The notes: generated by a model from the letters alone, not told the origin. Shown: positions 10,504 to 42,371, counted from the first letter of the stretch. The stretch: DNA of 64,000 nt from Blasia pusilla (GCA_050084515.1 CM114271.1:38688001-38752000); one strand, 5' to 3'. Translations and numbers: made by a program.

Positions 10504-10531
10504 CTAGTAAGGTGCCCGTGCGATGCACGGG
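10504..10531 (-). terminator. Helitron B 3' terminal hairpin and CTAG end
   Basis: Minus strand reads CCCGTGC-ATC-GCACGGG-caccttaCTAG|T: a perfect 7-bp GC-rich stem, then CTAG followed by host T. Confidence 0.93.
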
Positions 10532-12553: not shown

Positions 12554-13136
12554 TGTCGTGCGAATCCACATCGTCATACAACATACATCGTTGAAATACC
12601 ATACTCACATACATACAGAATATAGACGAGAGCATCCAAAAACACAAGTGTACCACAACTGAAATCCGTGAAAGACCTACTGTCATAAAACACGTATAGA
12701 ATCACATACAATCGAGCCAAACCCACTCCACGATGGGAGAATCCAGGTCGAAGCTTGCGGGAACCACCATAGCCAAGAGCTCTACTCACTACCAAGGCTA
12801 ACTCCCAACGCAACAGGCTCAACTCAAAGAACTAACGGTTCTTTGAGTGCACTCCACACTATATCCTCCAACCTAAGAGCGGGCCCTACTGGAAAAGTCA
12901 CCCTCAACTGAGTAACCCCCAACCCTATGTATGAAACCGCATCTCTACCTAGACATTACGGCCCTACATAAGGTATGGCCTCTACTAGCACACTATACTC
13001 AACGGCATAATCCGTATGGTCATGACAGCTGTCGTGCGAATCCACATCGTCATACAACATACATCGCTGACATACCATACTCACATACATACATAACATC
13101 GACAAGAGCATCCACAAACACAAGTGTACCAAAACT
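12554..13136 (-). repeat. composite 3' terminal repeat of DNMT-gypsy copy 1 (plus order A1-B1-gc-A2)
   Basis: The 107-bp A segment occurs twice (12554-12660 and 13030-13136). The 366-bp B segment (12662-13027) recurs at 21993-22358. The internal junction reads CATGACA-GC-TGTCGTG. Confidence 0.92.
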
Positions 13137-13137
13137 T

Positions 13138-13147
13138 GCCCCCCTAA
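13138..13147 (-). promoter_or_regulatory. putative polypurine tract of DNMT-gypsy copy 1
   Basis: Minus strand TTAGGGGGGC lies immediately before segment A. The same motif is at the same position in copy 2 (33582-33590). Confidence 0.7.
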
Positions 13148-13308
13148 CTGGCGGTTAGGTTCCTCTAACTCCCAGGTATCCCTATACATCTACTACATGC
13201 TATACACCTTCATGGATGCACGAATCAGAAGGCTGGGTGCTAGGTTGACCCATCGTTAGTCGCACATCTGTAATCCATATCATGCAAAGATCAAGTAATC
13301 TACCTCTC

Positions 13309-14690
13309 CTAAGTACATCGAAGACAAACCCACCTTCCAGTAGGAACAAAATCCATACGTGGAGTCAAACACATCATGTGCCAACCCCTAGAACACCGAT
13401 CATACACCAACATACGGGCTACGTTTCTAGCAGACCCACACAACATGCACCTCAAACTAGCACGTATTATGGCTAAGCTTGGGTCAACAGTACCATCCAC
13501 ATTTGGAAGATGACATGACGCACAATTACGCACATGGTCCTTCCAAACAACTCCATCACAACCCTCCAACATGAGAACTCCAGAAGCTAACACCTCTCAC
13601 ACTCGTAAAATAGTGCGGCCTGCCATCACATCCAACGTTGTTAGTGCAATCTTCTGCAAATAGACATAGTCCCCCACATGGAACTTACAAATCGATGGTC
13701 GATAACCTCCATCCCGAATGGTTGCATACCGCAACGTATCCCTGTGTTGAGCAATGGCAAGATTCTCAAAGATTGTTGGCATAACTCTCCGAAAGAGCTT
13801 TGCACGTTGAGAACACACTTTCATCCACGTCTATGGGTCATCAAGGTTCACCACCTTACTAGACTCCCGATGAATTGCTACTAGCAAGTCTGGATCTTGG
13901 CCGTATAACAGAAAATAAGGTGAGAAGGAAGCCAAGGATGCTTGGCGACTGAACCTATACCCCATGGCTAACCATGGCAAGTGAATATCCCAATCTCCAA
14001 GATGCCCCTTCTGTAGGACATACTTGCGCAATGCCCTCTTCACCATTTGAACCACACGCTCAGCCAAACCATCCGCCTCTGGATGATCTCGAGACATGGT
14101 CCGATGATCAATCAACACCTTGTCACACAAGACCTAAAACTCACCCTCAAACTTTGTACCCTGGTTGATCAACACTTTAGCTGGTGCACCAAAATGACTA
14201 AGCACTCTATCAAGAAACGCATACGCCGTTCCCTCACTTGCCATGTCCGGTAATGCCACCAACTCAATCCACTTGGAGAAGTGCTCCACCATCACCAACA
14301 CATATCGATGATGTCGTACAGTCAACGGCAACGGTCCCCCAAAGTCCACACTCCAACGGTAACCCAACCCCATAATAGGCAAGGGGTGTAAATGTGGTGT
14401 AGGGGCATTGAATGATGCCCTCACCCGGTCACAAACCATACAATGTGACACCAATTTCTGCACCTCAGTATGCATGCCACGCCACCAATACTGACCAAGG
14501 AGTAAGCTATACGTACGCTTTACCCCAAAATGTTCCAACTCCTCATGGGCATGTCACACAATGCGCTCTCTTTGAGCCAAATGCGGCACTACTTGTACTC
14601 TACCATCCTCCCACACACGGAGAATATGTGTTCCCTCCAATCGATACCTCTTAGCACCTTGAAGAACACGGTCTCGCTCCTTGGCGCTCA
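13309..14690 (-). pseudogene. gypsy integrase with C-terminal PHD finger (copy 1)
   Basis: H-H-C-C zinc motif (HFGVKRT...CMVC), WSVDFGGP, VEHFSKW, NQGTKF, HPEADGLAERVVQ, then CMLC...YDRC..GWHMMCL...GRWVCLRCT. Confidence 0.9.
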
Positions 14691-14965
14691 CTATGCCTGG
14701 CACCCTTCTTGTCCGTAGGAACTCCAACACCAACGCATCATCATGAATATCATGCTGACCGTCCCATCATCTCCAACCTTAGGATCTGAAGGCTGGCCAT
14801 CTACCCTCTGACTAGAGTAAGATGTCATGTGGTCCTCCATACTAGAGTCCATCCCTAACCAACATAAAAAGGCAGATGCATGCCAACCTGGCACCATCTC
14901 CTCATCAACCTTGCCATGCCATCTAGCCCTAGTTGCATCCTCTTGGCTAGTACATGGGTTCCTAC

Positions 14966-16435
14966 TCAACCCATCAGCATCAAGGTTGGCAACTCCAGGT
15001 CTATGTACCACCTGGAAGTCATACTCCTGTAAGATAAGACCCCTGCAAGCTTCCCTGTAAGCTTGTCAGACTCCATCAACCACTTGAGCGGCTGGTGATC
15101 AGTAACAAGGGTAAACTGTGTGCCAAACAAGTAACACCTAAAGTCTGCCACAACCCACACTACTGCCAAGCACTCTCCCTCATATGAACTATAGCGCGAC
15201 TCCGTTGCATTATTCGAACGACTTGCATAGGCCACCACAAACTCCATGTGCTCATCATCATGTTGTGTCAACACCGCTCCAAGTCCCAACCTACTCCAAT
15301 CAGTGTGTAATTGAAATGGGCGCCCTCTGATAGGTCTCCTCAAGATAGGCGCAGTCACCAACTGGGCCTTGAGCTCCACTAAAGCTCTCTCCTGATCATC
15401 TCCCCGGTGCCACTCCTGATCTGATTTCAGCAATTGGTTCAAAGGCTTTGCCATAGCACTAAATCCCTTCACATACCTCCGATAGTAGTTCGCCAATCCC
15501 ATGAATGCCCGAACTCTACTCACATCTACCGGAAGAGGAATAAGTGCAATAGCCTCCTCCACCTTTGCTTGCTGAACTCCCAAACCACCTGGATAGATCA
15601 CATGACCCAAGTACTCAACATCCTCATGGAAGAACTTACACTTTCCAAGATGCAAACGTAGACCATGAGCTTTCAACCGCTTAAACACAATATGCAAATG
15701 TATATGATGCTCCTCCACCGTGTTACTGAACACCAAGATATCATCAATGTAACACCAAAAAAAATTCAATCCTGCTAGGATCATGTCCATCACTCTCTGA
15801 AACTCGACAGGTGCATTCTTCAACCCAAAGGGTAAGAATTTCCATTGGTACAAAAAATCCTTGCCATGAGAGTTGACACCCCAAAATGATGTCTTGGCTT
15901 TGTCACTCTCTCGAATTGGCAACTGATGGTATCCTGCCCGAAGATCCAAAGTACTGAAAATCTTTGCTTGTCCCACCACATCAAAGATCTCCTCAAGTGT
16001 AGGCATGGCATACCTATCGGCCTTGGTCTGCCGATTGATAGGGCGGTAATCTCCACACATCCTGCTAAAAAGGATGTGCATGTAGTTGCCATGCACATCC
16101 TTTTTAGCAGGCGTGACAGTGGCTGATGCATACTCTCCATGCGACAACTCCACTAATCGAGCCTCCAAAAGGTCCAACGTCCTACTCTGAATCATGTCCC
16201 TCTCCATATCACTATATCGGTAGGGACGACGGAAGATTGGCGAATCACTAGCCAAATCAATCCGTATACCGGGTCCAACCAAAGCACCCAACTCCTTCAT
16301 GCTAAAGGCAAAATAACTCCTATAAGCACGTATGAATTGTGTCAAACGTCGTTTCTCACCTCCCCTAAGCTTGGGCCCAAGTAATGGCTCCCAAGTCTCC
16401 TCTACTGGTACACTAGAGGGAGAGGACGACGCCAT
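14966..16435 (-). pseudogene. gypsy reverse transcriptase and RNase H (copy 1)
   Basis: RMCGDYRPIN, STLDLRAGYHQ, LPFGLKNAP, CYIDDILVFS, YLGHVI, FMGLANYYRRYV, LHTDWS, VAYASR, YEGECLAVVW, VTDHQPL. Confidence 0.95.
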
Positions 16436-16689
16436 TGGCCCCTATGCAACCCCCTCACAAGATGGTACACCCTTAGCTACACCATCATCTGAGCAAATAA
16501 CTCCTCCACTAGCATGAGCAACCAACTCTACATGCCCAGCCATTACATCCCATTTACTCCAAGGATGCAAAATACTATTCTCCTCGCCCCTAGCCGATGT
16601 CTCTACCATCCCGGTAGCCATTGAGCTCATCATAAGGGGTGGAAGACCCATAGACATAGTCCAAAGTCGACGTTGCTTGGCCATACCAA

Positions 16690-17650
16690 GACTCAAAATC
16701 CAGGTCAAACAATTCAGGTCCATGGCCTGACCCAACGCATGATGTCGTGAAGCCTCACAAATGGAAGCAACCGTTGTCACACCAGTAGCTAATCCTATCG
16801 CACGCTCTCTCTCATCAGCGTTAGGCTCCACCAACTGTTGCACATGAGAATCCCATACAAGCCCGGGACCACCTTCCCTGTAGGCATGTGACGAGGGAAA
16901 ACTTACAAATGTGGGTAGTTCCATCCTAGGCTCGCCCACACGGTTCACTACTGCCATGGGTGACCGATCAATAACCCTCACCACCTGAGAAAGTCGCCCA
17001 ATATCCAAGATACTATACACTGTAAGGCAAGGATCCCACTGCACTGCATCATATGCTCGACGTAGAACCTCCCTAGGCAACAAGTTTGTCCAACACAAGC
17101 GTGGATGATGTGCACACGAGCCAACTCGCGCTGCATCCAACAACACCGCTAGTCCAATCCAAGACCGCATCTCATGAACACTTGCCATCATCCGGGTCCG
17201 AGTGTCACCCAACAATGAAACATTCTCCAGAATGTAAGATGAAGTACGTGCTTGATGAACCTAAAGATGTCATAACACCCGTAACATCTCCCAAAACAAT
17301 CGAAACCTAGGGTCATGTAATCCCTCACCACGAAGAGCACGTGTATGACCCTGACATGGCCATCCAACAATCACCAAATCCACAGGACAAACCCTCTCAA
17401 GGTCCTGCGCCCCCAACAATGCAATGTGTGACGGCAAAGCACGTTGGTACCCACGAATAGCTGATGGAGGAAACAACTCAGGATATCTCCGCATCAACTG
17501 ACGAATATGTTGGGATGAGACTCTCTGGGCCATCTCATCTTGCTCTATATCTCCGCACAGGAATACCGGCCTGCAACATTGCAGCCAAACCATTGCTAAT
17601 CCCACCAAAGAGATCAAACACACAAATGCCCTCTGGTGGATACTGCCATA
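16690..17650 (-). pseudogene. C5-cytosine DNA methyltransferase domain (DNMT3-like) inside pol, copy 1
   Basis: Motifs in canonical order: I VFDLFGGISNGL, IV DLVIVGWPCQGH, V GLHDPRFRLFWEMLRVL, VI YIL(ENV) across a frameshift, VIII SCAHHPRLCWTNL, IX ERERAIGLATGVT, X RHHALGQAMDLNCL. Confidence 0.9.
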
Positions 17651-18099
17651 CAATGGGTGTAGTATCCAAAGGGGATAACCCAATTGGACCAGAAGTAGGA
17701 GTCCGCCGTGGGGCCTCCTCTTCCTTGTGAGGTATAACAGTCTCACACCAAGCCTCATGCACTAGGCGATCAGCCTCTTGCCGTAGTGCACCGCATGAAC
17801 ACCAAAGTGGCACATCCAACGATGAGGATACCATTGCTGCAAAACTAGGGACCTCCTCTACCTCCTCATGCACAAGAGAATCCATAGCAGAAAGATTACC
17901 CTCCAAAGAGTCTCCTGGCCAAGTGACTACTCCACAAAAACCATCCACAGATGCTAACACCGTCGCGGGAAGCCTTCCTGGTCGATACCCATAAATACAT
18001 CTCGCAGGAACCTGGCTCATACGTCCATCCCCGGACTGCCAACCAGGTCTATAAGACGATGTCTAAGTCCAGTAGTCCATCTGAAAACCCATCGGGTAC

Positions 18100-18400
18100 A
18101 ATACTGCTCCTCCAACTAGTACATCATACGACTCGGGTGACGTGACCATTGCAGGTACTGCCAACTGGGAGCTATCAATTGCATGATCTGGTCTCAACTA
18201 TACATAAAACTTCTCCCGTGTCATGTATTGAGTCCTATCATTGGCTCCTCCAAGTGATGTTTGAATCTGGAATGGGCAAGGCTCAAAGCTGTGACCTCCG
18301 AATACCCAAACCAATACATGTCGCCTTTCCGAACATCAAAGGTTGGGCACCAGGGTCTAACAAGACTCTATCTGGTCTATACACCTATCATGTAGGACTC
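18100..18400 (-). pseudogene. aspartic protease (copy 1)
   Basis: My translation of 18325-18370 gives RVLLDPGAQPLMFGK. Copy 2 has LVDSGAQPLMLG at the equivalent position. Confidence 0.75.
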
Positions 18401-18848
18401 ACCAATTGGAATATCCCACTCCGGTTGTCCAACATACATACACCAGGTGTAAGCCTCTCACGATCAATGGCTGGCCGGGCTGGTAATGCATCCATCTTCG
18501 CCGTTGCTGCCTGCCAAGTAGCAATGGTACTCAATGCTACACCTGACATAGAGGGTCGCTCCACCGCAACACCCTCATCCACCTCAGCACCTGTAGCAGT
18601 AACACCCCACGTTCACATAACGTGGCTGGTAGCTGAAATACATGAGCTAAGTCAACTACTAAAGCCATTAGCTCCGTGGCCAAAAATAATGGGGATCCCA
18701 ACACTGAAGTTGCCATCCGCAATACTGCACTGGATGGTGCATCCGTATCTACTACACGCGATGTAGATGCCCTAGTCCCCACTGTAGGCTCAATAGGCTG
18801 TGTAGGAACCATGGATGGAGTCCTAAGCACCTCAGACAACAAGAATGA

Positions 18849-20495
18849 CTAGGGAAGCCTAACCTGCCTCCCAACCTCACCCCTCTGTGGATCCAACTCC
18901 ACAGTAGCACCACGTGGCTCTGACGCTCGAGTGGCTCCTCTCGTAACTGCAGATGATGCCTCAACATGTGCTACACTCGCCATATAAGAGAGATCATCCC
19001 CTCCATAAGAGGTGGAAGCCCCTGCTCCCGAACTTGCTCTATGCTGGATACCAGCCATAGTAGCCAACTTCTGCTCCAACTGCTCAATTTTGGCAGCCAG
19101 AGCTAACTCTATCGTAGTGATAGGGGTAGCCAACGTAGGCTCTCCAACCAATGGTCCATCTCTACCATCCCTACCACCTTGGCCTCTTGGAGCTACTCCA
19201 CCACGGCCGCGGCCTGATCTCAACTCTGGATGAAGATCAAAGCAGCGCTCTCGAGGATGACCTGGTCTCCCGCAATGATCACATTGAGTTGGGGCCAAAT
19301 GAGGCCCATCCTCCAAAGTCCGTCTCCCATCCTCTTGGGGGAAAAACCTCCTAACATGATCACCTCCACATGTCCAACATGATTGTCCTTGCTGCGGGGC
19401 AGCAAATGAAGGCAATGGTCTCTGGGCAAGTGTCCCTCTAGGACCTAAATGAGGTCGTGTGTACCCCCCACAACTCCCACTACTACTACTACCACCACTA
19501 CTACGAGACTGTGAGGTGGAGTGCTAAACACGAGAAGTAGTAGTTGTATCCCTACTGAATGCGGATGCCACCACTCTCTCCTCCACAATGTTAAGCTCAA
19601 TCTTGTCAAATAGAGCAAACATATGGGTCAATGTGGGTGAATCATCACTCATAAGAGTAGCATCACGTACCCTACGGCGCAATTCTCTGTCCAAGATCCC
19701 ATACCAAAATTGGAGTGCATGAGCCTCACTCACACCATGGGTAAGTGAAATCAAGCGTCGCATACGAGTGTATGCCTCACGAAGACTCTCACCAGTCTTT
19801 CGCTCAAATTCCTGAAGACTCCTCAACTTCTCTATCTTCACTCCCTGATAGTTCTTCTTCAACCTCTTGAAGAACTCTGCAACCGGGCTGAACGATGGTG
19901 GGGCACTAGTACCTCCACTAGTACCCCCACTGGTACCTCCACTAGTACCCCCACTCCAGCTCGTACTTGTACCACTCAACGTCGGGCTGGCTGGAATAGT
20001 AGGAGCACTACTACCAATACCACAATGGGTGATAGACACATAGCCTGGAGACCAATGTTGTCTACACGCCTCAATCTCAGCAACATGGTCCTTCCTAAAC
20101 TCATGGTTATCGTCCATGGATGGTCCCTCCAAGTGCTGAAACGACCCCTTCCAAGCCAAGAAGGGTGTAAACAATGTGGCGTTCCGCAACATCTGCATAT
20201 CATACCACGTATCAAACTCCTGAATGAAGTCCTCCAACTCAATGGTGCCCACTGCACCCGAGTATCGTCGTGGGCCCTTCATGGCCCCATATATCCCGTC
20301 CATGTTCCAACTCAATGGAGCTGCAACACTCGATAACAACGTAGAAGACTCGATGTTTGGAACACCCTTGTCCTCCTCTTCATCAACCTTCGAAAGTGGA
20401 AAAGGTAGCCGATACCTCAATCCACTCCATGTAAAACCACCATTGTCCGCACCACGGTCCCCAACCAGACCAACAGACAGCTCTGTGATGACCAA
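18849..20495 (-). pseudogene. gag with two zinc knuckles (copy 1)
   Basis: Retrotransposon gag-like GESLREAYTRMRRL...QFWYGILDRELRRRV, followed by CWTCGGDHVRRF and CDHCGRPGHPRERC. A 12-bp tandem repeat encodes (SGGT)n at about 19906-19955. Confidence 0.85.
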
Positions 20496-21992
20496 CGCCG
20501 ATGCCGTACCACCACCAAATCACCACCACTAAGTAATCGAGTGACGTCGATGTCGCTATACTAGCTCTACTAGCTATGGGTGTAGGCAACCTAACCTGTC
20601 ATCACCACAAGAAGCCTCCGGCGGTCTATTGGTCATCACTCCGGCCTCACTATTGGTAGCACACATGAGTAAAACTACTCTGGAAATCAATGTCAACCCT
20701 AAAAATGGGCGCGCAAGCAAGAAGCAACGATGGAGGGGATCCAAACATATGAAGTCCAACGACAACCCTCCAATCGCAAATGGAAATCAAGCTAACAAAA
20801 TCCACCAAACATGGCGCCCCCTGAATCCACAGAACCCACCACAAAATTCTAATGCAATAGCTACTCCGCCGTTAGTCGATGACTTGCTAGTCGCACTCGC
20901 AGCCCTTAAAAATATCACCTGCATGGAGAGGCTACACCGTACTATGCGTTAGAGGTCCATCAACCAAAAACTCGAGATGCATAAAGCGCCTAACACATCT
21001 CCGAACAACACCAAATGAGCTACACCAGTGTGTACACTGGCATAGTTAAGAACTCAGCAGTTAAACGTCTTCCAGGCAGAATAGCCCAAAGATGGGTGAC
21101 CAATTATGCAACACTTAACTCACAAATCCTGCAAAAACTGCCTCATACCCAAGCAAGCAAGCAAGCTTGCTTGCTCCTTGCTCCTTACTCCGCCTCTCAC
21201 CCCCACTCGCCCCGAGCTACCACGAGTTGCCTCGAATCCTCAAAACGCTGAGACATGCCACGTTTGCCATGCTTCACTATGGAGAGAGGCCCAACCAAGG
21301 CGCCCCCAGCGGGATAGGCGTCTCCAACAACAGACGAATCACCAACCAACCAGCCCCTCCGATTTGTTGTCCACCATAGCCAGACCTTGAGCTAGTGCGC
21401 AAAATTTTGATCAGCAATTACTCCACAAATCCTCAACCAAGATTGAATTTTTTTCAACTTAAATTCAATTGGCCACCATATCTATCTCTCCACAAAAAAT
21501 CAGCTACAACCGAGCCCTGTACTTTGAGCTAAAAATCAGACAAACTTGATGTCCATACACCTCCAGAATCACAAATCCGACAGGGCTTCCGCCCAGATTC
21601 ATGCACACAGAAATCCGCAACGCTCCACACACTCAAGCAGATAGCTTCACATGAGATCACAATACAAGTAGTAACATGAACCTCTCACCCAATCTGGATG
21701 AACTTCAACAGTGCTTCTGCACTCCAAGCTCTCCACATCAGAAAACCGTTGAACACGAACCAGAATCTTCAATCCTTGATAACTTCCAACTCCCTTAACA
21801 AAATCCGACGATCTAAAGCGCGTTGGAAAGCTCTCAGCAAGGCGCTTTTTTCCCACACAACCACACCAGATTCACACCTCCAACATAGGCCACAAGCCAC
21901 GAACATCCACGGCTGAGTACACAATCAGCCCTAACCAGATCCTACTGATCCACGATCGAAGCTACCATCGATCTACTCTAGTTCTTTGAGTT

Positions 21993-22358
21993 AAATGCAT
22001 CAAAGACATACTATCATAAAACACGTATAGAATCACATACAATCGAGCCAAACTGACTCTACGATGGGAGAATCCAGGTCGAAGCTTACTGGAACGACCA
22101 TAGCCAAGAGCTCTACTCACTACCAAGGCTAACTCCCAACGCAACAGGCTCAACTCAAAGAACTAACGGTTCTTTGAGTGCACTCCACACTATATCCTCC
22201 AACCTAAGAGCGGGCCCTACTCGAAGAGTCACCCTCAATTGAGTAACCCCCAATCCTATGTATGAAATCGCATCTCTACCTAGACATTACCGCCCTACAT
22301 AAGGTATGGCCTCTACTAGCACACTCTACTCTACGACATAATCCGTATGGTCATGACA
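21993..22358 (-). repeat. 5' terminal repeat (segment B only) of DNMT-gypsy copy 1
   Basis: Matches 12662-13027 over 366 bp and lacks segment A. It contains a TATA-like motif (22191-22195) and an 11-bp hairpin (22153-22179). Confidence 0.92.
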
Positions 22359-32644: not shown

Positions 32645-32809
32645 TTATGTCCATTGCTTCACCATGTACTGACGCACGTGCCTTTCTTGCATCCATCTGA
32701 AGTCACGCAATGCTTCTTGCGCATCTTCTAGATCCGCCTCCGCAATCCAAGTCGCCTCTTTCACATGATAGCCTTTCCACTTGACCAAGTACTCGTACTT
32801 GGTGGCCCT
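32645..32809 (-). pseudogene. chromodomain of the chromovirus integrase (C-terminal half)
   Basis: ATKYEYLVKWKGYHVKEATWIAEADLEDAQEALRDF. It joins ETILRSTRR (42325-42355) once the nested element is removed. Confidence 0.9.
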
Positions 32810-33760
32810 TGTCGTGCGCATACACATCGCTACACAACATACATCGCTGTCACCGAACACACACACAAACACGCATGATCCCATGCTAACTCATGGCATC
32901 CAAACAACGAGACAAGAAGAACCAAAATATCTCCAATAAAGTAAGATCCAATCTCTCTCTCCACCATCTCACACCATAGCTCTCAAAGGTGTGCACTCTC
33001 TCTCATGTCAAACCAAACCCACTCTCCTAATGAGAGGTTTGGGTTACACTCACAAGGCAAGGTACCATAGCTCCGCCGCCTCATGCCAAGAGGTTCAACA
33101 AAGAGAGAATGAGCTCTCAAGCTCTCTCTCCTTGAGGTATACCCCTCTCCTCTCCCAAGCTCTCTCCATGGTAACCTATTCTCCCAAGTCACCTCCTTGG
33201 CTCTTGACCTGATGTAGGAGGTCAAGGGCCACTTACCAAAAATAGTAAGTCGATCATATACTCAAAATGGTACTTATCTAAAATAGTAAGTTCCTCAATA
33301 TGGCTCCAAATGAGCCGAAACGAAGGGGAAACCTGCTATCTCAGGTTTCCAAGGGCCTCAGCAGGTCACCCTCGACCTACTGGGCATGTCCTCCACTACT
33401 CATGAAGGCGCTCTATTAGATCCCACCGATCTATCCTAAAAGACGTGACAGTTGTCGTGCGCATACACATCGCTACACAACATACATCGCTGTCACCGAA
33501 CACACACACAAACACGCATGATCCCATGCTAACTCATGGCATCCAAACAACGAGACAAGAAGAACCAAAATATCTCCAATCGCCCCCCTAGCTGGTGGTT
33601 AGGTCCCTCTAACTCCAGATAGCCATCTATCCCTACCTACCATGACATACATCTCTCGGACGCTAAGAGCAAGAAGGCCGGGTGCTCATGTGGCCCCATC
33701 GTTAGTCGCCTCCTTGTCATCCATGTCATAGACACAAGTCGGAATGTAGAACTACCTTCT

Positions 33761-35147
33761 CTATGTACATCTGGGACACATCCATCGTCCCTGAGGAACC
33801 CTAGTGAGAGGTGGCGTCAAACATGCCATATGCCATCCTCTCGAACACCCATCACAGACTAGCATCGTGGCCGCACCACGGGCAGAACCACACAACATAC
33901 AACGCAAGCCTGCAGGAACTACTACTAAGCTCGGATCTACTGTACCATCAATGTTAGGAATGTGACATGGCGCACAATTACGCACATGGTCCTTCCATAC
34001 CATACCATCGCGTCCCTCCAGCAAGAGAACACCCGATGGCAAAATGTCACGCACTCTCAGGATAGTGCGCCCTGCAGTCACATCCAACGTCGTCGGTGCC
34101 GTCTGCTGCAAATAGACATAATCTCTTTGATGAAACCTCCGGATAGTTGGTCGATAACCACCACCTCGAATAGTCGCATACCTCAACGTATCCCGATGCT
34201 GTGCAATCGCCAAGTTCTTAACGCCATGGGCATCACTCTCGAAATAACTCACCCTCTCGAGAACATGCTCGCACCTATACATCTGGGTCATCAAGGTTCA
34301 GCACCTCACCAGCATCTCGACGAATGGTCGCAGGTAAATCTGGCTCTCGGCCATAAAGTAGCAAGTACGGTGAAAAAGACGCTAAGGATGCCTGCATGCT
34401 GAATTTGTATCCCATCGCCAACCATGGCAACTAGAGGTCCCAATCTCCTAGGTGACCTCTCTGCAAGCCATACTTGCGTAAACCCCTCTTCACCATCTGC
34501 ACAACTCTCTCCGCTAATCCATCCGCCTTAGGATGATCTCGCGAAGTCGTGCGGTGGTCGATGAGCGCCTGATCACACAAGGCTTGGAACTCACCGCGAA
34601 ACTCGGTACCCTGGTTTGTCAACACCTCAGCTGGTGCGCCATAATGACTTAGCACTCTGTCAAGGAAGGCATAAGCTACTCCCTCACTTGCTTTGTCAGG
34701 CAAAGCAACCAACTCGATCCACTTCGAGAAGTGCTCGACCATCACCATCACCAACACATAACGACTATGACGCTCCGTCAAGGGCAAAGGTCCTGCAAAA
34801 TCCAAACTCCATCTATACCCTAAGCCCATGATCGGTAATGGATGCAACTGTGGAGTCGGAGCATTGAACGATGCTCGGACCCGATCACACACCATGCACC
34901 TGGCAACAAACTGCTGAACGTCAGTCCGCATGCCTCGCCACCAATAATGAATCTGGAGCAAGCTATACGTCCGCTTCACCCCAAAGTGACCCAACTCCTC
35001 GTGGGCATGCTGCACTAGTCGTGCTCTCTCCAAAGGATGCGGCACTACGCGTACTCTGCCATCCTCCCAAACCCTCAAAACATGTGTCCCCTCCCAACGG
35101 AACCGTCGGCCCATTTGTAGGATCCGATCCCGCTCTCTAGCATCCAT
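33761..35147 (-). pseudogene. gypsy integrase with intact C4HC3 PHD finger (copy 2)
   Basis: HAHEELGHFG...CMVC, WSLDFAGP, TNQGTEF, DGLAERVVQ, then CMLCGSARGAATMLVCDGCSRGWHMACLTPPLTRVPQGRWMCPRCT. Confidence 0.93.
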
Positions 35148-35402
35148 GGTGCTCGCAAGGCGCCGAGACGAAGGTACTCTAAGACTACTCCATCATCATG
35201 AATATCTCGGCCACTTGTTGTGTCCTCACTGGCCTCGGGATCCAAAGACTCTCCACTAGACCTCGCCATCGAAGTCTCCACACTCTGGCTCTCCATAGCC
35301 AACATGCCTAAATAGGCTGACGCGTGCCATCCTGGCACCGACTCCTCATCACTCTCTCCATGCCATTGAGCTCCAGTCGCATCTCGCTGACTCGGGCATG
35401 GG

Positions 35403-36835
35403 TTACGACTCAACCCATCTGCATCCTGGTTGAGCGTTCAGTCTATGTACCACACGAAAATCATACTCCTGCAACAACAGAGCCCATCTCGCAAGCTTCC
35501 CTGTAAGCTTGTCGAACTCCATCAACCACTTCAGTGGTTGATGATCAATGATGATGGTAAAGGGGTTGCCGAATAAGTAACACCTAAAATGCGCGAGACC
35601 ACACCGCATGACCAAGCACTCACCCTCATACGAGCCGCCTTCGCCTCTGCGGCGTTGTTCGAGCGGCTAGCGTAAGCCACCACAAACTCTCTACCCTCAT
35701 CATCATGCTGGGTGAGCACCGCTCCAAGCTCCAACATGCTCCAATCTGTGTGCAACTGGAAAGGACGCCCCCTCATCGGTCTCCTCAAGATGGGTGTGGA
35801 CGTCAACCTGTCCTTGAGCAACTGAAATGCTCGCTCCTGCTCATCCCCCCAGTGCCACTCGTGATCCACCTTGGTGAGCAAGGTCAGCGGCTTTGCAATC
35901 GAACCGAATCCCTTGATGTATCGCCGATAGAAGTTCGCCAATCCCATGAATGCGCAAACACGGCTCACATCTGTAGGGCGTGGAATGCGTGAGATAGCCT
36001 CTACCTTCGTCTGCTGAACACCAAGGCCCCCTGGTTATATCGTATGACCCAAGTACTCAATCTGGTCGTAGAAGAACTTGCACTTGCCTAGATGTAGCTT
36101 CAGCCCATGTAATTGCAATCGTCGAAACACCTCCTCTAGATGTTGCTCGTGCTCCTCAAACGTGGCGCTAAAGACTATGATGTCATCAATATAACACCTA
36201 GCAAAATCCAGACCAGCCAAGATCCTATCCATGACCCTCTGAAACTCAGCCGGGGCGTTCTTTAACCCAAATGGTAAGAACCGCCACTGGTACAAACAAT
36301 CCTTCCCGTGAGGATCGATGCCCCAAAATGCCGTCTTCTGCCTGTCCTCCAATCTGATAGGCAGCTGATGATATCAAGCTCGCAAATCCAATGAACTGAA
36401 GACCTTTGCGTGACCAATCACATCAAAGATCTCCTCAGGGGTGGGCATGGCATACCTATCGGACTTCGTTTGCCGATTGATAGGTCGGTAATCCCCACAC
36501 ATCCGCCTATCCGTCCAATTGCCATGCACATCCTTCTTGGCGGGCATGACAGTGGCAAATGCATACTCTCCATGCGATATCTCCACTAGTCCAGCTCCGA
36601 CCAAGTCTTGGCTCTTACTCTGAATCAGAGCCCTCTCCATATCACTATACCTGTAGGGTCGTCGGAAGATCGGCATATCACTCGACAACTCAATGCGGAT
36701 CCCCGGTCCCTTCAGCGTACCCAAATCCTCCATGCTAAACGCAAAGCAGCTCCTATAACTCCTGAGGAACTGATGTATTCGGCGCCGCTCTCCTCCTGTC
36801 AACTTAGGGCCCATATCTGGCTCCCAAGTCTCCAT
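35403..36835 (-). pseudogene. reverse transcriptase and RNase H (copy 2), frameshifted
   Basis: RMCGDYRPIN, LPFGLKNAPAEFQR, CYIDDIIVFS, FMGLANFYRRYI, LHTDWS, IDHQPLKWL. Confidence 0.93.
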
Positions 36836-37179
36836 CGTGACTACGGTAGGACTCTCCGGCGCGGGTATCGGTGGTTGCTATGGTGCAACCCCGTCTCGAA
36901 CAACAACACTTGGCCGCTCTCCTGCAGCCAACTGCAAACTCTGATCTCCTCCACGTGCAATGCCCAAAACCACGCTCGATGTTGTGGCTATCATCTCCTT
37001 GCATACCTTCAAAACATCCCAAGAAGTCCAAGGGTGTCTCTCCCGATCTCCCCTGGTGCGTAGATCTCCTCGGGTCTCGCCCCCAGCCGTTGCCTCCACC
37101 GTCTCGGTAGGCATGGGGCTCACCAACGCAACATTGTGATCTGTCGCGATCTCATACGACGCCGCTCACCACTCCCAAG

Positions 37180-38140
37180 GCGAGGATCCATGTCAAGAAG
37201 TTCAGGTCCATCGCTGACCCAAGACATGGCGTCGCGTGATGCCTCGACATCGATGGTACGCTGCCGTCACTCTGTGGGAAATCCCATCGCCGCTCTCTCT
37301 CTCGGCGTTGGGCTCCACCAACCGCTGAACCTGGTCATCCCAAACCAAGCAGGATCGGCCTCCTTGTATGCACGGAAGCGGAAAACTCACAAACGTGGGC
37401 AAGGCGCCGGGCTTGCCTACCCTGTTGACCCCGATCGGCGGTGGTCGATCATCGTGCCTCACCGCCTCTGTGATCGGCGACTGGATCGAATGGAATCCAC
37501 TAACAAAGGGAGGGGCGCTCCACTCTCGCATACGCCCTCCATAACACCGCATGGGGCACCAAGTTGGTCCACCATAGAGGCGGGCGATGGGCTCTAGAAC
37601 CTACACTTGCCGCATCCAAGAACACTATTGGGCCGATCTAGGCACGCACCTGATGAGCACTCATCACGACCCGTGACCAAGAGTCTCCTAAGATCGGCAC
37701 ATTCTCCAGAATGTAGGCTGGAGAACGAGACTGGTGCTCCTGCAACTGCCGTAAGACCCTCAACATCTCCCAAAACAACCTGGACCGAGTGTCAGCCAAC
37801 CCGCTGCCTCGTCCAACACTCGATTGGCCCTGACATGGCCAACCAGCAATGACCAAATCAATGGTCCCTACCCGCTCTAAGTCCGGCGCCCCCAACAACA
37901 AAATATCCCTCGGTAGGGAATTCTGGTACCCTGTACTGCGGACGCAAACAATAAGTCGGGAAAACGTAGGCGTAATTGCGCCACATGTTGTAGTGAGACG
38001 CGCCTCGCAACATCATCACTCTCCACATACAAATCTTCGGCCAGACTCGCACTCTCGCTTGCAAAACAAAGACTAACCCGATTCTAATCACTCCAAAGAG
38101 ATCTAACACTCGAATACCCTCCTCCGGGTACACCACACAA
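37180..38140 (-). pseudogene. C5-cytosine DNA methyltransferase domain inside pol (copy 2)
   Basis: PEEGIRVLDLFG (motif I), DLVIAGWPCQGQSSVG (IV), GLADTRSRLFWEMLRVL (V), AYILENVP (VI), LVEPNAERE (IX), RRHVLGQ (X). Confidence 0.9.
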
Positions 38141-38599
38141 TGGGTGTAGTATCCAAGGGTGTCATCGTAGCACTCCCGCTACCTCGGGTTCCTCAGACTG
38201 TCACGCCTGGTGCAAACGCCTCGCTCCACGCTGATGCCGTGCACGTGTGCATCCGCTTAATCGTTGAAGCTCCTCGCCGAGCCCCACACCGGCACCTCTC
38301 CTCCACGGAATGATGCGGCTACAATAACACTCCTCTCCATAGAAATGTCGAACAGGAGTATCTCTGCATGGACATGTCCCTCAATCAAATCACTAGGCCA
38401 AGTGATGGGCACGCTAAATCTTTGCTAAGGTCGCCATCTCTCCTCGCCGTTCGATCATCGCACTGTGAATTGAACGGGTAATGAGCTAAGGCGCCCATCA
38501 CCTGGATCGCCATCCTGGTCGTAGGGACGCCGACTCCTCCCGTAATCCAGGGAAAACCCCATCGGGTATAACATCGCTCCACCAACCAAGATGTCGAGG

Positions 38600-40930: not shown

Positions 40931-42371
40931 CCACTCCGCGTAAAACCTCTAGAGCTACTCTCGGGTTCACCACCTCGCCTCTCAAAGTCCCGAACAGACT
41001 CCGTGATGACCCTCGTGCCCCTCTCACCCGATCACTCTGAACCTCGTGAGGAATCCCTCAATCACTCATCCCAAACATGCGGCACTCGATCTACACTCTC
41101 TCTCCCCAAGACGTGTAACGTGCGGAAACACGCGGCGTGGTGCGGCAAATCGACCAGGCTATCATCTCATCGACAACCTACCCTCAACTCTGGACATCCC
41201 ACACAGGTCTATGTCCCCTAAACCACATACATAAATGATGCTCTCAGCATCCACACACCCAATATCCCCAAATAAATCCCAGAATCCCTCACACGTGCAG
41301 GGTAAAGGACCAGAATGGGTAACCTGAACACATGTCAATGTCGCTCCCCAGCAACTAAAAATCTCGACCCCAACTCGATCGTGGAGACAACTCCTCCAAT
41401 CAGCAAGTCATACTCCTCCCGTCATCGATCTTTGCTCAAAACTCCTCGATAGACAAATGCGGTCCCGGCCGAACGGTGCGGCGTTAAAGGCGACGAACGG
41501 CTACGAACGGCGCGGCCCTCGATGGTGGGATGCGGCACTCGGCGCATACCCTCCTCAATCAATAATAATCCCACACTCTGCTCCACAATGACGGTGCGGC
41601 TCGCGTCGAGATGGTGCGGTGCGCCACCCCAGCAGCGCACGGCGCGGCAATCGGCGGCGCGTTGCGGCTACGGGCGCCACGGCACGATACTCGATCGCCG
41701 CTCAGCGGCTACCAATCACAACATAGCAGCATGAAATCAAAACTCAAACACCATAACCGAGGTCATCGCCTTCATGGTTGATGAAGAAAGCTGCGATGAC
41801 GGTGGCGGCCAAAACAAAGTACGTGGTGGCGACGCAAGTCAAGGAATCAACGAACGTCATTGAAGACCCTCCACTCCGTAATGGCGGCAATGGCCACTCT
41901 CCTAATGAGAGGCTTGGGTTACACTCACAAGGCAAGGTACCATAGCTCCGCCGCCTCATGCCAAGAGGTTCAACAAAGAGAGAATGAGCTCTCAAGCTCT
42001 CTCTCCTTGAGGTATACCCCTCTCCTCTCCCAAGCTCTCTCCATGGTAACCTATTCTCCCAAGTCACCTCCTTGGCTCTTGACCTGATGTAGGAGGTCAA
42101 GGGCCACTTACAAAAATAGTAAGTCGATCATATACTCAAAATGGTACTTATCTAAAATAGTAAGTTCCTCAATATGGCTCCAAATGAGCCGAAACGAAGG
42201 GGAAACTTGCTATCTCAGGTTTCCAAGGGCCTCAGCAGGTCACCCTCGACCTACTGGGTGTGTCCTCCACTACTCATGAAGGCGCTCTATTAGATCCCAC
42301 CGATCTATCCTAAAAGACGTGACACCCTACGTGTGGAACGCAGAATGGTCTCAACCTCGAACTCTGGTTCC

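What the first reader, a model, noticed from the sequence alone, without database searches (positions are those of the whole stretch)
12554..22358. Ty3/gypsy retrotransposon encoding a DNMT3-like cytosine methyltransferase between protease and RT
Seen: a set of C5-MTase motifs (I DLFGGI, IV GWPCQG with the catalytic Cys, V, VI ENV, VIII AHxPRLxWTNL, IX ERERAIG..GxT, X LGQAMD) at about 16690-17650. They lie on the pol strand between PR and RT. Established: the VIII-X wording resembles DNMT3 (AHRARYFWGNL, ExERxFGFP..YT, R..LLGRSW). DNMT-bearing retrotransposons were reported in dinoflagellates and charophyte algae (de Mendoza et al. 2018, Nat Commun). I do not know of a characterised example in a land plant. 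Inference: the MTase is part of the polyprotein and is packaged into particles, where it could methylate the new cDNA or the insertion site, so the element would write its own epigenetic state.
Basis: partly seen in the sequence, partly recalled or inferred. Interest (0 to 1): 0.93.

Follow-up and report, generated by a model that had tools for sequence, protein, structure and literature searches.

The report
Dead retrotransposon carrying a DNMT3-like methyltransferase
This is a broken copy of a jumping gene whose family carries its own DNA-methylating enzyme; the kind was known from one green alga, and here it turns out to be common in mosses and liverworts, including a laboratory model plant in which its purpose could be tested.

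Summary
Window 12554-22358 (minus strand) is one Ty3/gypsy-type retroelement. It has a C5-cytosine methyltransferase domain between protease and reverse transcriptase, in the RT frame.

The domain is DNMT3-like:
- A family profile hits DNMT3A at 1.5e-17, DRM at 2e-9 and bacterial enzymes at about 4e-5.
- A confident model matches DNMT3A/B/C at TM 0.78-0.81.

This copy is dead. It has at least 5 frameshifts, at least 14 stops and 94.5% alike repeats.

The family is not a single-ORF element. ORF1 is Gag-PR-DNMT. A conserved in-frame UAG/UAA sits in 48 of 50 same-frame copies, mostly followed by CAA CCN. RT-RH-IN-PHD follows in the same frame.

The repeats are split as A-coding-B-A-B. De Mendoza 2018 (PMC5890265) describes the same for KnitGypsy-Dnmt3 of Klebsormidium.

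All 35 organism-named relatives are bryophytes: Marchantia, Sphagnum, Calypogeia and Riccia. I found no paper describing them.

A second, divergent copy lies at 32802-42324.

Verdict: a new member of a known kind. What the methyltransferase does is untested. I favour methylation of the element's own new DNA, at about 0.4.

The parts
21993..22358 (-). Repeat A1, the 5' terminal repeat of element 1. It begins TGTCATGACC.
   Evidence: 94.5% alike over 366 nt to 12662-13027. Boundary sequence read.
19524..20303 (-). Gag part of ORF1. The start MDGIYGA is at 20303.
   Evidence: Aligns from residue 1 of the Marchantia ORF1 protein P0088. Start motif located. Pfam Retrotrans_gag only 0.0047, below its cut-off.
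19242..19283 (-). CCHC zinc knuckle of Gag, CDHCGRPGHPRERC.
   Evidence: Pattern found. The name of the motif is recalled.
18271..18603 (-). Protease region of ORF1, degenerate: 3 stops and no intact D-S/T-G motif found.
   Evidence: tblastn to P0088 residues 558-666, which hold the LLDSGA site of the intact relative.
17616..18287 (-). Conserved linker between PR and the methyltransferase. It matches no Pfam family.
   Evidence: tblastn to P0088 residues 661-907, 65% identity, 2 stops. No Pfam hit.
16718..17615 (-). DNMT3-like C5-cytosine methyltransferase catalytic domain, motifs I to X. It is broken by one frameshift (between about 17547 and 17623) and two in-frame stops (17272-17270 TGA, 17263-17261 TAG).
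16445..16717 (-). C-terminal tail of ORF1 after motif X. It is predicted disordered in the intact relative.
   Evidence: Residues 336-398 of the model of P0003 have pLDDT below 50. Alignment.
16442..16444 (-). Conserved in-frame stop (TAG) between DNMT and RT. It is the proposed leaky stop.
   Evidence: 48 of 50 same-frame copies have TAG or TAA at this position.
14966..16441 (-). RT and RNase H, the start of ORF2 and the only long open stretch (491 codons). YIDD is at 15751-15740.
   Evidence: RVT_1 7.5e-32, RT_RNaseH 4e-30. YIDD located.
13831..14553 (-). Integrase: HHCC zinc finger at 14553-14431, then the DDE core. It is in another frame than RT and carries stops.
   Evidence: Integrase_H2C2 3.4e-13, rve 1.9e-8. 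Frames and stops.
13315..13449 (-). PHD finger at the C-terminus of the integrase.
   Evidence: PF00628 at 2.9e-7, residues 50-94 of ORF 13596-13309.
13135..13145 (-). Polypurine tract AGGGGGGCAAG, directly before repeat B1.
   Evidence: Read. The same AGGGGGG lies before B1 in element 2, L035 and L079.
13030..13136 (-). Repeat B1. It ends ..CGCACGACA.
   Evidence: 93% alike to 12554-12660.
12662..13027 (-). Repeat A2.
12554..12660 (-). Repeat B2, the 3' end of element 1. It ends ..CA.
32802..42324 (-). Element 2, a second and divergent member of the family. Repeats: A1 41894-42324, B1 33445-33580, A2 33019-33450, B2 32802-32937. DNMT remnants at about 38155-36950, stop TAG CAA CCA at 36880-36878, PHD at 33901-33821. 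A 4-bp duplication AGGG flanks it.
   Evidence: tblastn 45% identity. Repeats 98.8% alike. Ends read. Stop. PHD 5.2e-12. At least 30 stops.

Best explanation
WHAT IT IS (odds about 0.9). Window 12554-22358, minus strand, is a dead copy of a lineage of Ty3/gypsy-type retroelements of the kind described as KnitGypsy-Dnmt3 in the charophyte Klebsormidium nitens.

In intact relatives the layout is as follows:
- repeat A
- a long leader
- ORF1, which is Gag (with a CCHC knuckle), protease, a linker of about 200 residues, a DNMT3-type catalytic domain and a disordered tail
- one in-frame UAG
- ORF2 in the same frame, which is RT, RNase H, integrase and a PHD finger
- a polypurine tract
- repeats B, A and B

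HOW IT WORKS (inferred).
1. Ribosomes mostly stop at the UAG. Gag-PR-DNMT is therefore the abundant product.
2. A small share reads through. The context UAG CAA CCN is close to the CAR YYA signal of tobacco mosaic virus. Readthrough gives the full polyprotein with RT, IN and PHD.
3. Because the methyltransferase is fused to Gag, it should enter the particle with the RNA.

MY PREFERRED FUNCTION (odds about 0.4). The methyltransferase methylates the element's own double-stranded DNA copy, before or at integration. New insertions then arrive already marked, while the PHD finger steers the integrase to chromatin.

SHOWN AND NOT SHOWN.
- Shown here: the domain identity and fold, the domain order, the conserved stop and frame, the split repeats, long-term constraint on the domain, and transcripts of relatives.
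- Not shown: readthrough, packaging, any enzymatic activity, and the substrate.
- This copy makes no protein of use.
For: IDENTITY OF THE DOMAIN
- PF00145 scores 22.1 bits on the broken copy, and 35.6-45.5 bits on intact relatives.
- A profile of 9 family members against solved structures gives this order: DNMT3A 1.5e-17, DNMT3B 4.4e-15, DNMT3C 1.3e-14, DRM 2e-9 to 1e-6, HaeIII/HhaI about 4e-5, DNMT2 about 2e-4. No DNMT1 appears at E 0.01 or better.
- The AlphaFold model of the natural relative P0003 used 87 aligned sequences and is confident (pLDDT 85.6, pTM 0.83).
- Every listed Foldseek match up to rank 50 is DNMT3A, 3B or 3C. TM normalised to the target is 0.77-0.81 for catalytic-domain chains, with E down to 1.1e-18.

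ELEMENT CONTEXT
- RT, RH, IN and PHD are confirmed by Pfam.
- The DNMT tail and the RT head are adjacent in 61 of 82 sequences examined.

CONSERVED STOP
- Of those 61, 50 keep one frame across the junction.
- Of those 50, 48 have a stop at the homologous codon: 36 TAG and 12 TAA.
- 46 of the 48 are followed by CAA CCN.
- 2 have a sense codon there, and 11 of the 61 differ in frame.
- The stop is present in five diverged lineages: element 1, element 2, the main metagenome family, L049 and L080.
- Protein models from Marchantia (P0087, P0088), Calypogeia (P0004) and unnamed sources (P0089, P0006, P0003) end at the same place.
- The CAR YYA rule was read in a passage of PMC2754532.

CONSTRAINT ON THE DOMAIN
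- Across 87 proteins that are 25-85% identical to the first, these are at least 90% conserved: the motif IV Cys, the EN of ENV, H/R/R/W/N of motif VIII, P/E/R/E of motif IX and R/G/D of motif X.
- Between two families with open frames, dN is 0.28 and dS is 1.77, a ratio of about 0.16 (L004 against L049).

ONE LINEAGE
- In an RT tree of 112 tips, all 67 DNMT-bearing elements fall on one side of a split with support 1.0.

SPLIT REPEATS
- The order A..B-A-B is seen in element 1, element 2, L035 and L079.
- The ends are TG..CA. The 4-bp duplication is exact in element 2 and L079.
- This matches the legends of de Mendoza 2018.

TRANSCRIPTION OF RELATIVES
- Three RNA-seq runs of the organism that holds this DNA laid 1304-1399 reads each on element 1.
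- Almost all reads were 95-99% alike, and mostly first mate on the + strand, which in most stranded libraries means RNA of the element's sense strand.
Against: THIS COPY IS BROKEN
- ORF1 changes frame 3 times and has 9 stops.
- ORF2 changes frame twice and has at least 5 stops.
- Motif VIII differs from the family at three positions.

MOST COPIES ELSEWHERE ARE BROKEN TOO
- Only 4 of the 82 sequences scanned have a methyltransferase frame open for 400 or more codons: L004, L011, L049 and L080.
- Only L049 has long open frames on both sides.

CONSTRAINT WITHIN ONE FAMILY IS WEAK
- Median pairwise dN/dS is 0.57 for the methyltransferase core, against 0.46 for RT-RH.
- Variants shared by copies have a nonsynonymous to synonymous count of 197/95, against 167/61 for private ones. 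For RT-RH the counts are 160/116 and 173/78.
- Within that family, therefore, the methyltransferase looks less constrained than RT.

OTHER POINTS
- dS of 1.77 is near saturation, so the ratio of 0.16 is rough.
- No conserved RNA structure was found after the stop.
- An ATG two codons after the stop in element 1 and in the main family leaves reinitiation open.
- The RNA reads come from other copies. Only 2-6 reads per run are 99% or more alike. Depth over the methyltransferase is low (0-14), and the main transcribed relative has a 1-kb deletion in IN.
- The only assay of a Gypsy-borne DNMT3 in print gave no methylation in yeast. The authors call it inconclusive, because human DNMT3B failed there too (passage read).
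- I made no tree with host DNMT3 or Klebsormidium sequences, because none could be fetched here.
Confidence: 0.78

Rival explanations
1. The methyltransferase is active but works in trans on the host genome. It might mark other transposons, host genes or chromatin near the insertion. Or it might act as a brake that lowers the element's own expression, so that host and element both persist.
For: - ORF1 placement makes it an abundant product that need not stay in particles.
- De Mendoza 2018 discusses both ideas (Discussion read).
- Element 1 has a low CpG observed/expected ratio of 0.57 with TpG/CpA at 1.27. That fits long-standing methylation of the copy.
Against: - The flank at 1-12500 has the same CpG ratio, 0.58. 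The depletion is therefore not special to the element and may be the host's doing.
- No methylome was examined.
- Fusion to Gag-PR favours action inside the particle (inference).
Confidence: 0.2
2. The domain no longer methylates DNA. It binds nucleic acid, methylates the RNA genome, or serves a structural role in the particle.
For: - KnitGypsy-Dnmt3 gave no DNA methylation in yeast, and the same paper raises RNA methylation for the LINE-borne enzyme.
- One full-length relative (P0109) has GWECQ in place of GWPCQ.
Against: - The catalytic Cys, ENV and the motif VIII-X residues are at least 90% conserved over 87 diverged proteins.
- The fold matches DNA-bound DNMT3A/B at TM about 0.8.
- Solved DNMT2, the RNA enzyme, is a far weaker match, at about 2e-4.
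Confidence: 0.1
3. The domain is a captured host fragment that rides along without use and is decaying. The family survives in spite of it.
For: - Most copies are broken.
- Within-family dN/dS of 0.57 is not far from the decay of dead copies.
Against: - RT-RH of the same copies gives 0.46, so the value mostly reflects dead copies.
- Between families the ratio is about 0.16.
- The domain is kept in a lineage with 662 clusters at E 1e-30 or better in a 50%-identity library. The caveat is that the profile also covered gag and PR.
- It is kept in two different positions of the polyprotein.
Confidence: 0.05
4. ORF2 (RT-RH-IN-PHD) is made by termination and reinitiation at a nearby AUG rather than by readthrough of the stop.
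For: An ATG lies two codons after the stop in element 1 (TAG GGG CCA ATG) and in the main metagenome family (TAG CAA CCC ATG).
Against: - Element 2 (TAG CAA CCA CCG) and L049 (TAG CAA CCA GTG) have no ATG there, and L080 has one only at the fourth codon.
- The two ORFs share a frame in 50 of 61 cases, which reinitiation does not require.
- The CAA CCN context resembles a known plant readthrough signal.
Confidence: 0.2

Closest known systems
KnitGypsy-Dnmt3 of Klebsormidium nitens (de Mendoza et al. 2018, PMC5890265; passages and Discussion read, figures and supplements not seen)
   Same: - Gypsy-type domain set with an integrase.
- An unrearranged DNMT3-type domain inside the polyprotein.
- Key catalytic residues kept, with purifying selection.
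- Repeats in the order A-coding-B-A-B.
   Different: - The host group here is most likely a bryophyte; the named relatives are all bryophytes.
- I could not see their figure, so I do not know whether their domain order is PR-DNMT-RT as here, or RT-RH-DNMT-IN as in 65 of the 274 relatives I scanned.
- The passages I read do not mention a stop between DNMT and RT or a PHD finger. 'PHD' occurs 0 times in the main text.
- Direct sequence kinship was not tested.
SymbioDIRS-Dnmt3 of Symbiodinium (same paper)
   Same: - A DNMT3-type domain in a retroelement polyprotein.
- A-coding-B-A-B repeats.
- Two coexisting domain orders.
- Shown to methylate CG de novo in yeast.
   Different: It uses a tyrosine recombinase. 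The element here has a DDE integrase (rve, H2C2) and 4-bp target duplications. Its RT lineage is different according to the paper.
Host DNMT3A/3B/3C catalytic domains (solved structures)
   Same: Best sequence and fold match. Same motif order I-IV-VI-VIII-IX-X.
   Different: - Only 19-23% identical.
- No PWWP or ADD domain. The only histone-reader-like module, a PHD finger, sits on the integrase in the other ORF.
- A stretch of about 55 more residues lies between motifs VIII and IX. The alignment has 320 columns against targets of about 285 residues (my reading).
Plant DRM methyltransferases
   Same: DNMT3-related, and found in plants.
   Different: DRM has a rearranged motif order. Here the order is the usual one, and DRM scores far lower, 2e-9 to 1e-6 against 1.5e-17.
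Chromoviruses (Ty3/gypsy with a chromodomain after the integrase)
   Same: A chromatin-reader domain fused to the C-terminus of the integrase, presumably for target choice.
   Different: In the RT tree the DNMT-bearing clade is separate from 44 relatives of the window's own chromovirus.
Leaky stops of tobacco mosaic virus (UAG CAR YYA) and of gammaretroviral gag-pol
   Same: An in-frame UAG between an abundant upstream product and the polymerase. The hexamer after it is CAA CCA in element 2 and L049, and CAA CCC in the main family (rule read in PMC2754532).
   Different: - Readthrough is not shown here.
- Element 1 itself has GGG CCA.
- No downstream structure was found.
- The stop lies after PR and DNMT, not after Gag.
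- The gammaretrovirus comparison is recalled, not read.

Membership tests
C5 cytosine DNA methyltransferase (PF00145) | Match to the family model at or above its curated cut-off | tested here: met
   The broken copy read with X scores 22.1 bits against a cut-off of 22. One piece alone scores 16.8, below the cut-off. Relatives score 34.4-45.5 bits and 35.6 bits.
C5 cytosine DNA methyltransferase (PF00145) | Motifs I, IV (Pro-Cys), VI (ENV), VIII, IX and X, in that order | tested here: met
   All six are located in order on the minus strand. They are conserved in alignments A1, A2 and A4. The motif names are recalled.
DNMT3 subfamily | Closer to DNMT3 than to DRM, DNMT1, DNMT2 or bacterial enzymes, by sequence and by fold | tested here: met
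   Profile ranking. All listed Foldseek matches up to rank 50 are DNMT3A/B/C.
DNMT3 subfamily | Placement inside the DNMT3 clade in a tree with host DNMT3, DRM and bacterial sequences | not testable with these tools
   No host DNMT3, DRM or Klebsormidium sequences could be fetched as usable records. Only family members were returned.
DNMT3 subfamily | N-terminal PWWP and ADD reader domains of the host enzymes | tested here: not met
   No such Pfam match in ORF1 pieces or in P0088. Only the catalytic domain is DNMT3-like.
Ty3/gypsy (Metaviridae) LTR retroelement | Gag, then PR-RT-RH-IN in that order, with a DDE integrase | tested here: met
   Pfam. Order. PR is seen only by alignment to P0088, whose LLDSGA site is intact.
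Ty3/gypsy (Metaviridae) LTR retroelement | Two identical long terminal repeats flanking the coding part | tested here: not met
   The repeats are split: A at the 5' end and B-A-B at the 3' end. TG..CA ends and 4-bp duplications are present.
KnitGypsy-Dnmt3 kind (Gypsy-DNMT3 of streptophytes) | Gypsy domain set, plus a DNMT3 domain in the polyprotein frame, plus A-coding-B-A-B repeats | tested here: met
   against the description read.
KnitGypsy-Dnmt3 kind (Gypsy-DNMT3 of streptophytes) | Sequence kinship with the Klebsormidium copies (shared clade of RT and DNMT) | not tested
   No Klebsormidium record was among the named hits. Supplements of the paper are closed.
DIRS-order elements | Tyrosine recombinase instead of a DDE integrase | tested here: not met
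   rve and Integrase_H2C2 are present, and no phage-integrase match was found. Only the repeat layout is DIRS-like.
Chromovirus | Chromodomain at the integrase C-terminus | tested here: not met
   A PHD finger is there instead.

The most novel reading that the evidence does not exclude
A lineage found across bryophytes, and probably older than land plants, makes a DNMT3 enzyme as the tail of its major Gag-PR protein, ahead of a leaky UAG of the plant-virus type.

Its split repeats are the footprint of a circular, two-LTR form.
- The polypurine tract lies directly before B, so reverse transcription should give an LTR of B plus A.
- The A|B junction is what joining the two cDNA ends would give.
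- The integrated unit begins and ends exactly at the B|A junction, which reads CA-NN-TG.

On this reading the integrase cuts an internal junction of a circular DNA, and that extrachromosomal circle is the methyltransferase's substrate.

This would explain why both DNMT3-bearing retroelement groups known so far, one with a tyrosine recombinase and one with an integrase, share the A-coding-B-A-B layout. It would mean that these elements set the epigenetic state of their copies before they enter the chromosome.
Probability: 0.15. Interest if true: 0.85.

Novelty: new member of a known kind. Interest (0 to 1): 0.6.

Why it matters
What a methyltransferase does for a retrotransposon has been open since 2018. 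The two known hosts, Symbiodinium and Klebsormidium, are hard to manipulate.

This window shows that the same kind of element, with the same odd repeat layout, is abundant in bryophytes. Full-length ORF1 models, Gag-PR-DNMT without a stop, are annotated in Marchantia polymorpha; P0088, for example, stands for 18 member sequences. Marchantia has transformation, methylation mutants and methylomes (recalled). The question therefore becomes testable in a model land plant.

Three details found here sharpen the hypotheses:
- The enzyme is on the Gag side of a conserved stop.
- The integrase carries a PHD finger.
- Two domain orders exist within one RT lineage.

For genome annotation there is a practical point. 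Gene models in Marchantia and Sphagnum named 'DNA (cytosine-5)-methyltransferase' or 'PHD-type domain' are pieces of these elements, not host genes.

Tried and rejected
- **Whole genome.** None is held, so copies in the window's own genome could not be counted.
- **The search of earlier findings.** It was closed.
- **First structure model.** With 9 aligned sequences it was poor (pLDDT 50.2) and was not used. The second, with 87 sequences, was used.
- **RNA structure after the stop.** The consensus fold was only -2.72 kcal/mol with 5 pairs, and one of my six stretches (L016) was mis-placed. No structure is claimed.
- **Naming the organism.**
  - The window's chromovirus ORF found nothing above 63% identity. 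Its named hits were Closterium, Riccia and angiosperms.
  - Rfam gave 0 matches and ARAGORN 0 tRNAs.
  - Cluster look-ups gave no organism names.
  - Run names were coded.
- **The look-up of sequencing runs.** No RNA holder was listed among the indexed runs. The RNA evidence comes only from the three raw-read runs laid.
- **ESM Atlas.** The nearest cluster is a eukaryotic, mostly streptophyte PF00145 cluster. Phage clusters score the same 0.96. This is a lead only.
- **tRNA-type primer binding site.** I looked after A1 and saw none. A conserved CAAAGAACT follows instead. It is left unexplained.
- **Rejected readings.**
  - A chance motif match is ruled out by E-values down to 1e-152.
  - A host DNMT3 gene hit by a transposon is ruled out because the domain is joined to PR and RT in 61 of 82 sequences.
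  - A locus-specific chimera is ruled out by the second copy in the window and the relatives elsewhere.

Full report
**1. What is in the sequence**

Stop-to-stop reading of 11500-23500 shows a run of minus-strand reading frames. Pfam names them as follows:

| Feature | Window | Pfam result |
|---|---|---|
| gag-like | 20519-19524 | 0.0047, below cut-off |
| RT and RNase H | 16441-14966 | RVT_1 7.5e-32, RT_RNaseH 4e-30 |
| Integrase zinc finger and core | 14553-14134 | 3.4e-13, 1.9e-8 |
| PHD finger | within 13596-13309 | 2.9e-7 |

- Motifs IV to X are in the RT frame.
- Two stops interrupt that frame, at 17272-17270 and 17263-17261.
- Motif I is in another frame, so there is one frameshift between about 17547 and 17623.

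Read through with X, the stretch just reaches the Pfam cut-off for PF00145 (22.1 against 22 bits). Its best solved relatives are DNMT3B chains, 8 of 9 hits at about 1e-4.

**2. The copy is dead**

I compared it with an open Marchantia ORF1 (P0088) and an open ORF2 from a metagenome locus (L049).
- The ORF1 part changes frame three times and holds 9 stops.
- The ORF2 part changes frame twice and holds at least 5 stops.
- The two A repeats are 94.5% alike.
- CpG observed/expected is 0.57 with TpG/CpA at 1.27. The low-GC flank has 0.58 as well.

Nothing this copy encodes can act.

**3. It belongs to a large family**

*Named relatives.* The broken domain finds 85 proteins of similar length (E down to 4.7e-152) and 25 longer ones.
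- Of the 85, 20 carry an organism name: Marchantia polymorpha 9, Calypogeia fissa 5, Sphagnum species 5, Riccia sorocarpa 1.
- Of the 25, 15 carry a name: Marchantia 14, Sphagnum fallax 1.
- All 35 are bryophytes. The rest are unnamed metagenome or assembly proteins.

*Wider library.* A profile search of a library clustered at 50% identity gave 15,927 hits at E 0.001 or better and 662 at 1e-30 or better. The profile also covered gag and PR, so the lower counts are inflated. The 150 listed all match the methyltransferase part at E 2e-89 or better.

*Second copy.* The window holds a second member at 32802-42324, only 45% identical in the domain.

*Metagenome loci.* A scan of metagenome contigs gave 121 relatives, of which 80 loci were kept.

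**4. The domain is DNMT3-like by sequence and by fold**

A profile of nine members ranks solved structures in this order:

| Solved structure | E-value |
|---|---|
| DNMT3A | 1.5e-17 |
| DNMT3B | 4.4e-15 |
| DNMT3C | 1.3e-14 |
| Plant DRM | 2e-9 to 1e-6 |
| HaeIII and HhaI | about 4e-5 |
| DNMT2 | about 2e-4 |

DNMT1 does not appear at E 0.01 or better.

A first model with nine sequences was poor. With 87 sequences the model of the natural relative P0003 is confident for residues 1-333 and disordered after that (pLDDT 85.6, pTM 0.83).

Every listed Foldseek match up to rank 50 is a DNMT3A, 3B or 3C chain. TM is 0.77-0.81 on catalytic-domain chains, with 19-23% identity.

The motif order is the ordinary one, not the rearranged order of DRM. 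There is no PWWP or ADD domain.

**5. The reading frames: a conserved stop, not one ORF**

In element 1 a TAG (16444-16442) separates the methyltransferase tail from RT, and both are in one frame. I located the tail and the RT head in all 82 sequences, that is 80 loci and the two window elements.
- They are adjacent in 61 of 82.
- 50 of those 61 keep one frame across the junction.
- 48 of those 50 have a stop at the homologous codon: 36 TAG, 12 TAA, no TGA.
- 2 of the 50 have a sense codon there (TAY, GAG).
- 11 of the 61 differ in frame, as expected of decayed copies.

Many loci are copies of one family, and some are the same locus assembled twice, so the count is not 48 independent events. 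However, the stop is present in five diverged lineages: element 1, element 2, the main family, L049 and L080, which has TAG TAG. Protein models from Marchantia (P0087, P0088), Calypogeia (P0004) and unnamed sources (P0089, P0006, P0003) end at that very place. Other gene models (P0092, P0100) skip it as if it were an intron.

In 46 of the 48 the next two codons are CAA CCN. Element 2 and L049 have CAA CCA, which fits the CAR YYA hexamer needed for readthrough of the tobacco mosaic virus UAG (passage of PMC2754532). Element 1 has GGG CCA.

No conserved structure follows the stop. An ATG two codons downstream in element 1 and in the main family, but not in element 2 or L049, leaves reinitiation as a rival.

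So the family's layout is this:
- ORF1 is Gag-PR-linker-DNMT-tail.
- ORF2 is RT-RH-IN-PHD, most likely made by readthrough.

One distant relative (P0109, 1946 residues) has PR-DNMT-RT-RH-IN-PHD in a single frame without the stop.

**6. Two domain orders in one lineage**

Among 274 fetched proteins with the domain:
- 65 have RT before it. The order is RT-RH-DNMT-IN-PHD, as in P0116 and P0123.
- 11 have it before RT.
- 198 hold no RT.

*RT tree.* It had 112 tips. I kept hits covering more than 330 of 410 query residues, 183 in all. All 67 with the domain were used, and the first 45 of 116 without it. All 67 DNMT-bearing elements fall on one side of a split with support 1.0, together with one protein in which I detected no domain. 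Within that side, the 62 RT-first elements form a group (0.94) apart from the 6 DNMT-first ones. The outgroup consists only of relatives of the window's chromovirus, so other gypsy lineages were not sampled.

*Domain tree.* It had 193 tips: 188 of 274 proteins with at least 70% model coverage, 3 open locus frames and the 2 window copies. The named bryophyte sequences and both window copies form a clade of 28 tips (support 0.96) with no RT-first member inside. Element 1 sits next to the Marchantia and Sphagnum-like groups.

**7. Selection**

*Across the wider family.* Over 87 proteins that are 25-85% identical to the first, these are at least 90% conserved:
- the catalytic Cys
- E and N of ENV
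- H, R, R, W and N of motif VIII
- P, E, R and E of motif IX
- R, G and D of motif X

*Between two families with open frames.* The core has dN 0.28 and dS 1.77, a ratio of about 0.16. This is rough, because dS is near saturation.

*Within the main metagenome family.* I used 38 of 82 sequences with one alignment piece over at least 85% of the reference. Merging copies at least 99% alike left 34, and L049 was set aside. That gave 528 pairs.
- Median dN/dS is 0.57 for the core and 0.46 for RT-RH, the latter from 120 pairs.
- Nonsynonymous to synonymous counts are 197/95 for variants shared by copies and 167/61 for private ones.
- For RT-RH the counts are 160/116 and 173/78.

Most of these copies are dead. 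They carry 0 to 11 stops in the 451 codons, and only L004 and L011 have none. The within-family figures therefore mostly measure decay. Even so, they show the methyltransferase as less constrained than RT there. This counts against a strong claim.

**8. The repeats**

*Layout.* Element 1 has the following:

| Repeat | Window |
|---|---|
| A1 | 21993-22358 |
| B1 | 13030-13136 |
| A2 | 12662-13027 |
| B2 | 12554-12660 |

Element 2 has the same order. So do loci L035 and L079. L039 shows B1 and B2 only, and L030 shows nothing, so 2 of 4 loci are complete.

*Ends.* The unit starts TG at A1 and ends CA at B2. The flanking 4-bp duplication is exact in element 2 (AGGG) and L079 (CATA), off by one in L035, and not recognisable in element 1. 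A run AGGGGGG lies directly before B1 in all four.

*Published parallel.* This is the 'A-coding region-B-A-B' layout that de Mendoza 2018 describes for SymbioDIRS-Dnmt3 and, in a legend, for KnitGypsy-Dnmt3. Together with the gypsy domain set and the DNMT3 domain, it places the window's element in the same kind as KnitGypsy-Dnmt3.

*My own inference, untested.* The layout may be that of a two-LTR circle opened at an internal CA-NN-TG junction. The notebook gives the argument.

**9. Expression**

Three RNA-seq runs labelled with the organism that best holds this DNA were laid on element 1.
- 1399, 1304 and 1369 reads fitted, from about 6 to 12 in 100 of each run.
- All but 6, 4 and 2 were 95-99% alike, with consistent differences. 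They therefore come from other copies of the family.
- First mates lie almost only on the + strand. In most stranded libraries this means RNA of the minus strand, the element's sense strand.
- Depth is highest over RT and IN (up to 89), low over the methyltransferase (0-14) and gag, and near zero over the leader.
- A skip of 1007 bases in IN shows that the main transcribed relative is a deletion copy.

Relatives are transcribed. This copy is not shown to be.

**10. Mechanism**

*Shown:* identity, order, frame, conserved stop, repeats, long-term constraint and transcription of relatives.

*Inferred:*
- Ribosomes mostly end at the UAG, so Gag-PR-DNMT is the abundant product.
- Being fused to Gag, the enzyme is packaged.
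- It methylates the element's double-stranded DNA copy, before or at integration.
- The PHD finger tethers the integrase to histone tails.

De Mendoza 2018 proposes cDNA methylation for the DIRS elements and lists alternatives (Discussion read). These are avoiding recognition as foreign DNA, protection from deamination, an effect on chromatin at the insertion site, and self-restraint that benefits the host.

I give cDNA self-methylation about 0.4, action in trans or self-restraint about 0.2, a non-DNA or structural role about 0.1, and a useless passenger about 0.05.

**11. Novelty**

The kind is known. In print I found it only for Klebsormidium. Two later papers refer to 'streptophytes' without naming a land plant (passages read).

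Five searches of the paper library found no description in a moss or liverwort. The library lacks most subscription journals, and supplements were closed, so a list of species in a supplement may exist.

These points are new relative to the passages I read:
- the bryophyte range
- the conserved stop that puts the enzyme on the Gag side
- the PHD finger on the integrase
- two domain orders in one RT lineage

The window's organism could not be named. By the company its element keeps it is probably a bryophyte.

**12. Verdict**

The claim of a self-writing epigenetic state is a hypothesis about intact relatives, not a property of this locus. The interest lies in the family, and in the fact that a model liverwort carries open copies.

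Noticed in passing
window 32802-42324 (minus): A second DNMT-bearing element of a different family. Its A repeats are 98.8% alike, yet the coding part has at least 30 stops and several frameshifts against the references. This looks like a recent insertion of an already broken copy, perhaps moved by proteins of another copy. It interrupts the chromodomain-coding end of a chromovirus whose own repeats lie near 30946 and 46366. The 4-bp duplication is AGGG.
   Followed up: partly
window 11652-12355 and 22331-22594 (minus): Element 1 sits inside another mobile element's reading frame. The flank 11652-11954 is a PIF1-like helicase (3.1e-16). I take it for a Helitron, from recall; the other flank pieces gave no Pfam match.
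   Followed up: partly
window 12554-13145, 21993-22358; L035 and L079: The junctions of the split repeats read CA-NN-TG: B1|A2 is CA GC TG, or CA AC TG in element 2, and A2|B2 is CA GT TG. The polypurine tract lies before B1. This would fit an integrated two-LTR circle cut at an internal junction. Inference only.
   Followed up: partly
window 21940-21992; L035 6318-6370; L079 6477-6530: After repeat A1 there is no TGG-type tRNA primer binding site. A conserved CAAAGAACT follows two bases after the repeat in element 1, L035 and L079, but not in element 2. How minus-strand synthesis is primed is unknown.
   Followed up: no
window 13781-14789: RNA reads of three runs skip 1007 bases here, with 9 other letters in between and no GT..AG ends. 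The most transcribed relative therefore carries a deletion in the integrase.
   Followed up: no
L049 321-6809: The best preserved relative found. It has a 957-codon gag-PR frame, one stop, a 438-codon DNMT frame, the conserved TAG CAA CCA, and then 766 open codons of RT-RH-IN up to the contig end. The extra stop between PR and DNMT is seen in this copy only.
   Followed up: partly
P0077, P0092, P0100 (Marchantia and Sphagnum gene models): Public gene models stitch pieces of these elements together, for example PR end plus DNMT parts plus IN-PHD. They splice around the conserved stop and carry names such as 'PHD-type domain' or 'DNA (cytosine-5-)-methyltransferase'. They are element fragments, not host genes.
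   Followed up: partly
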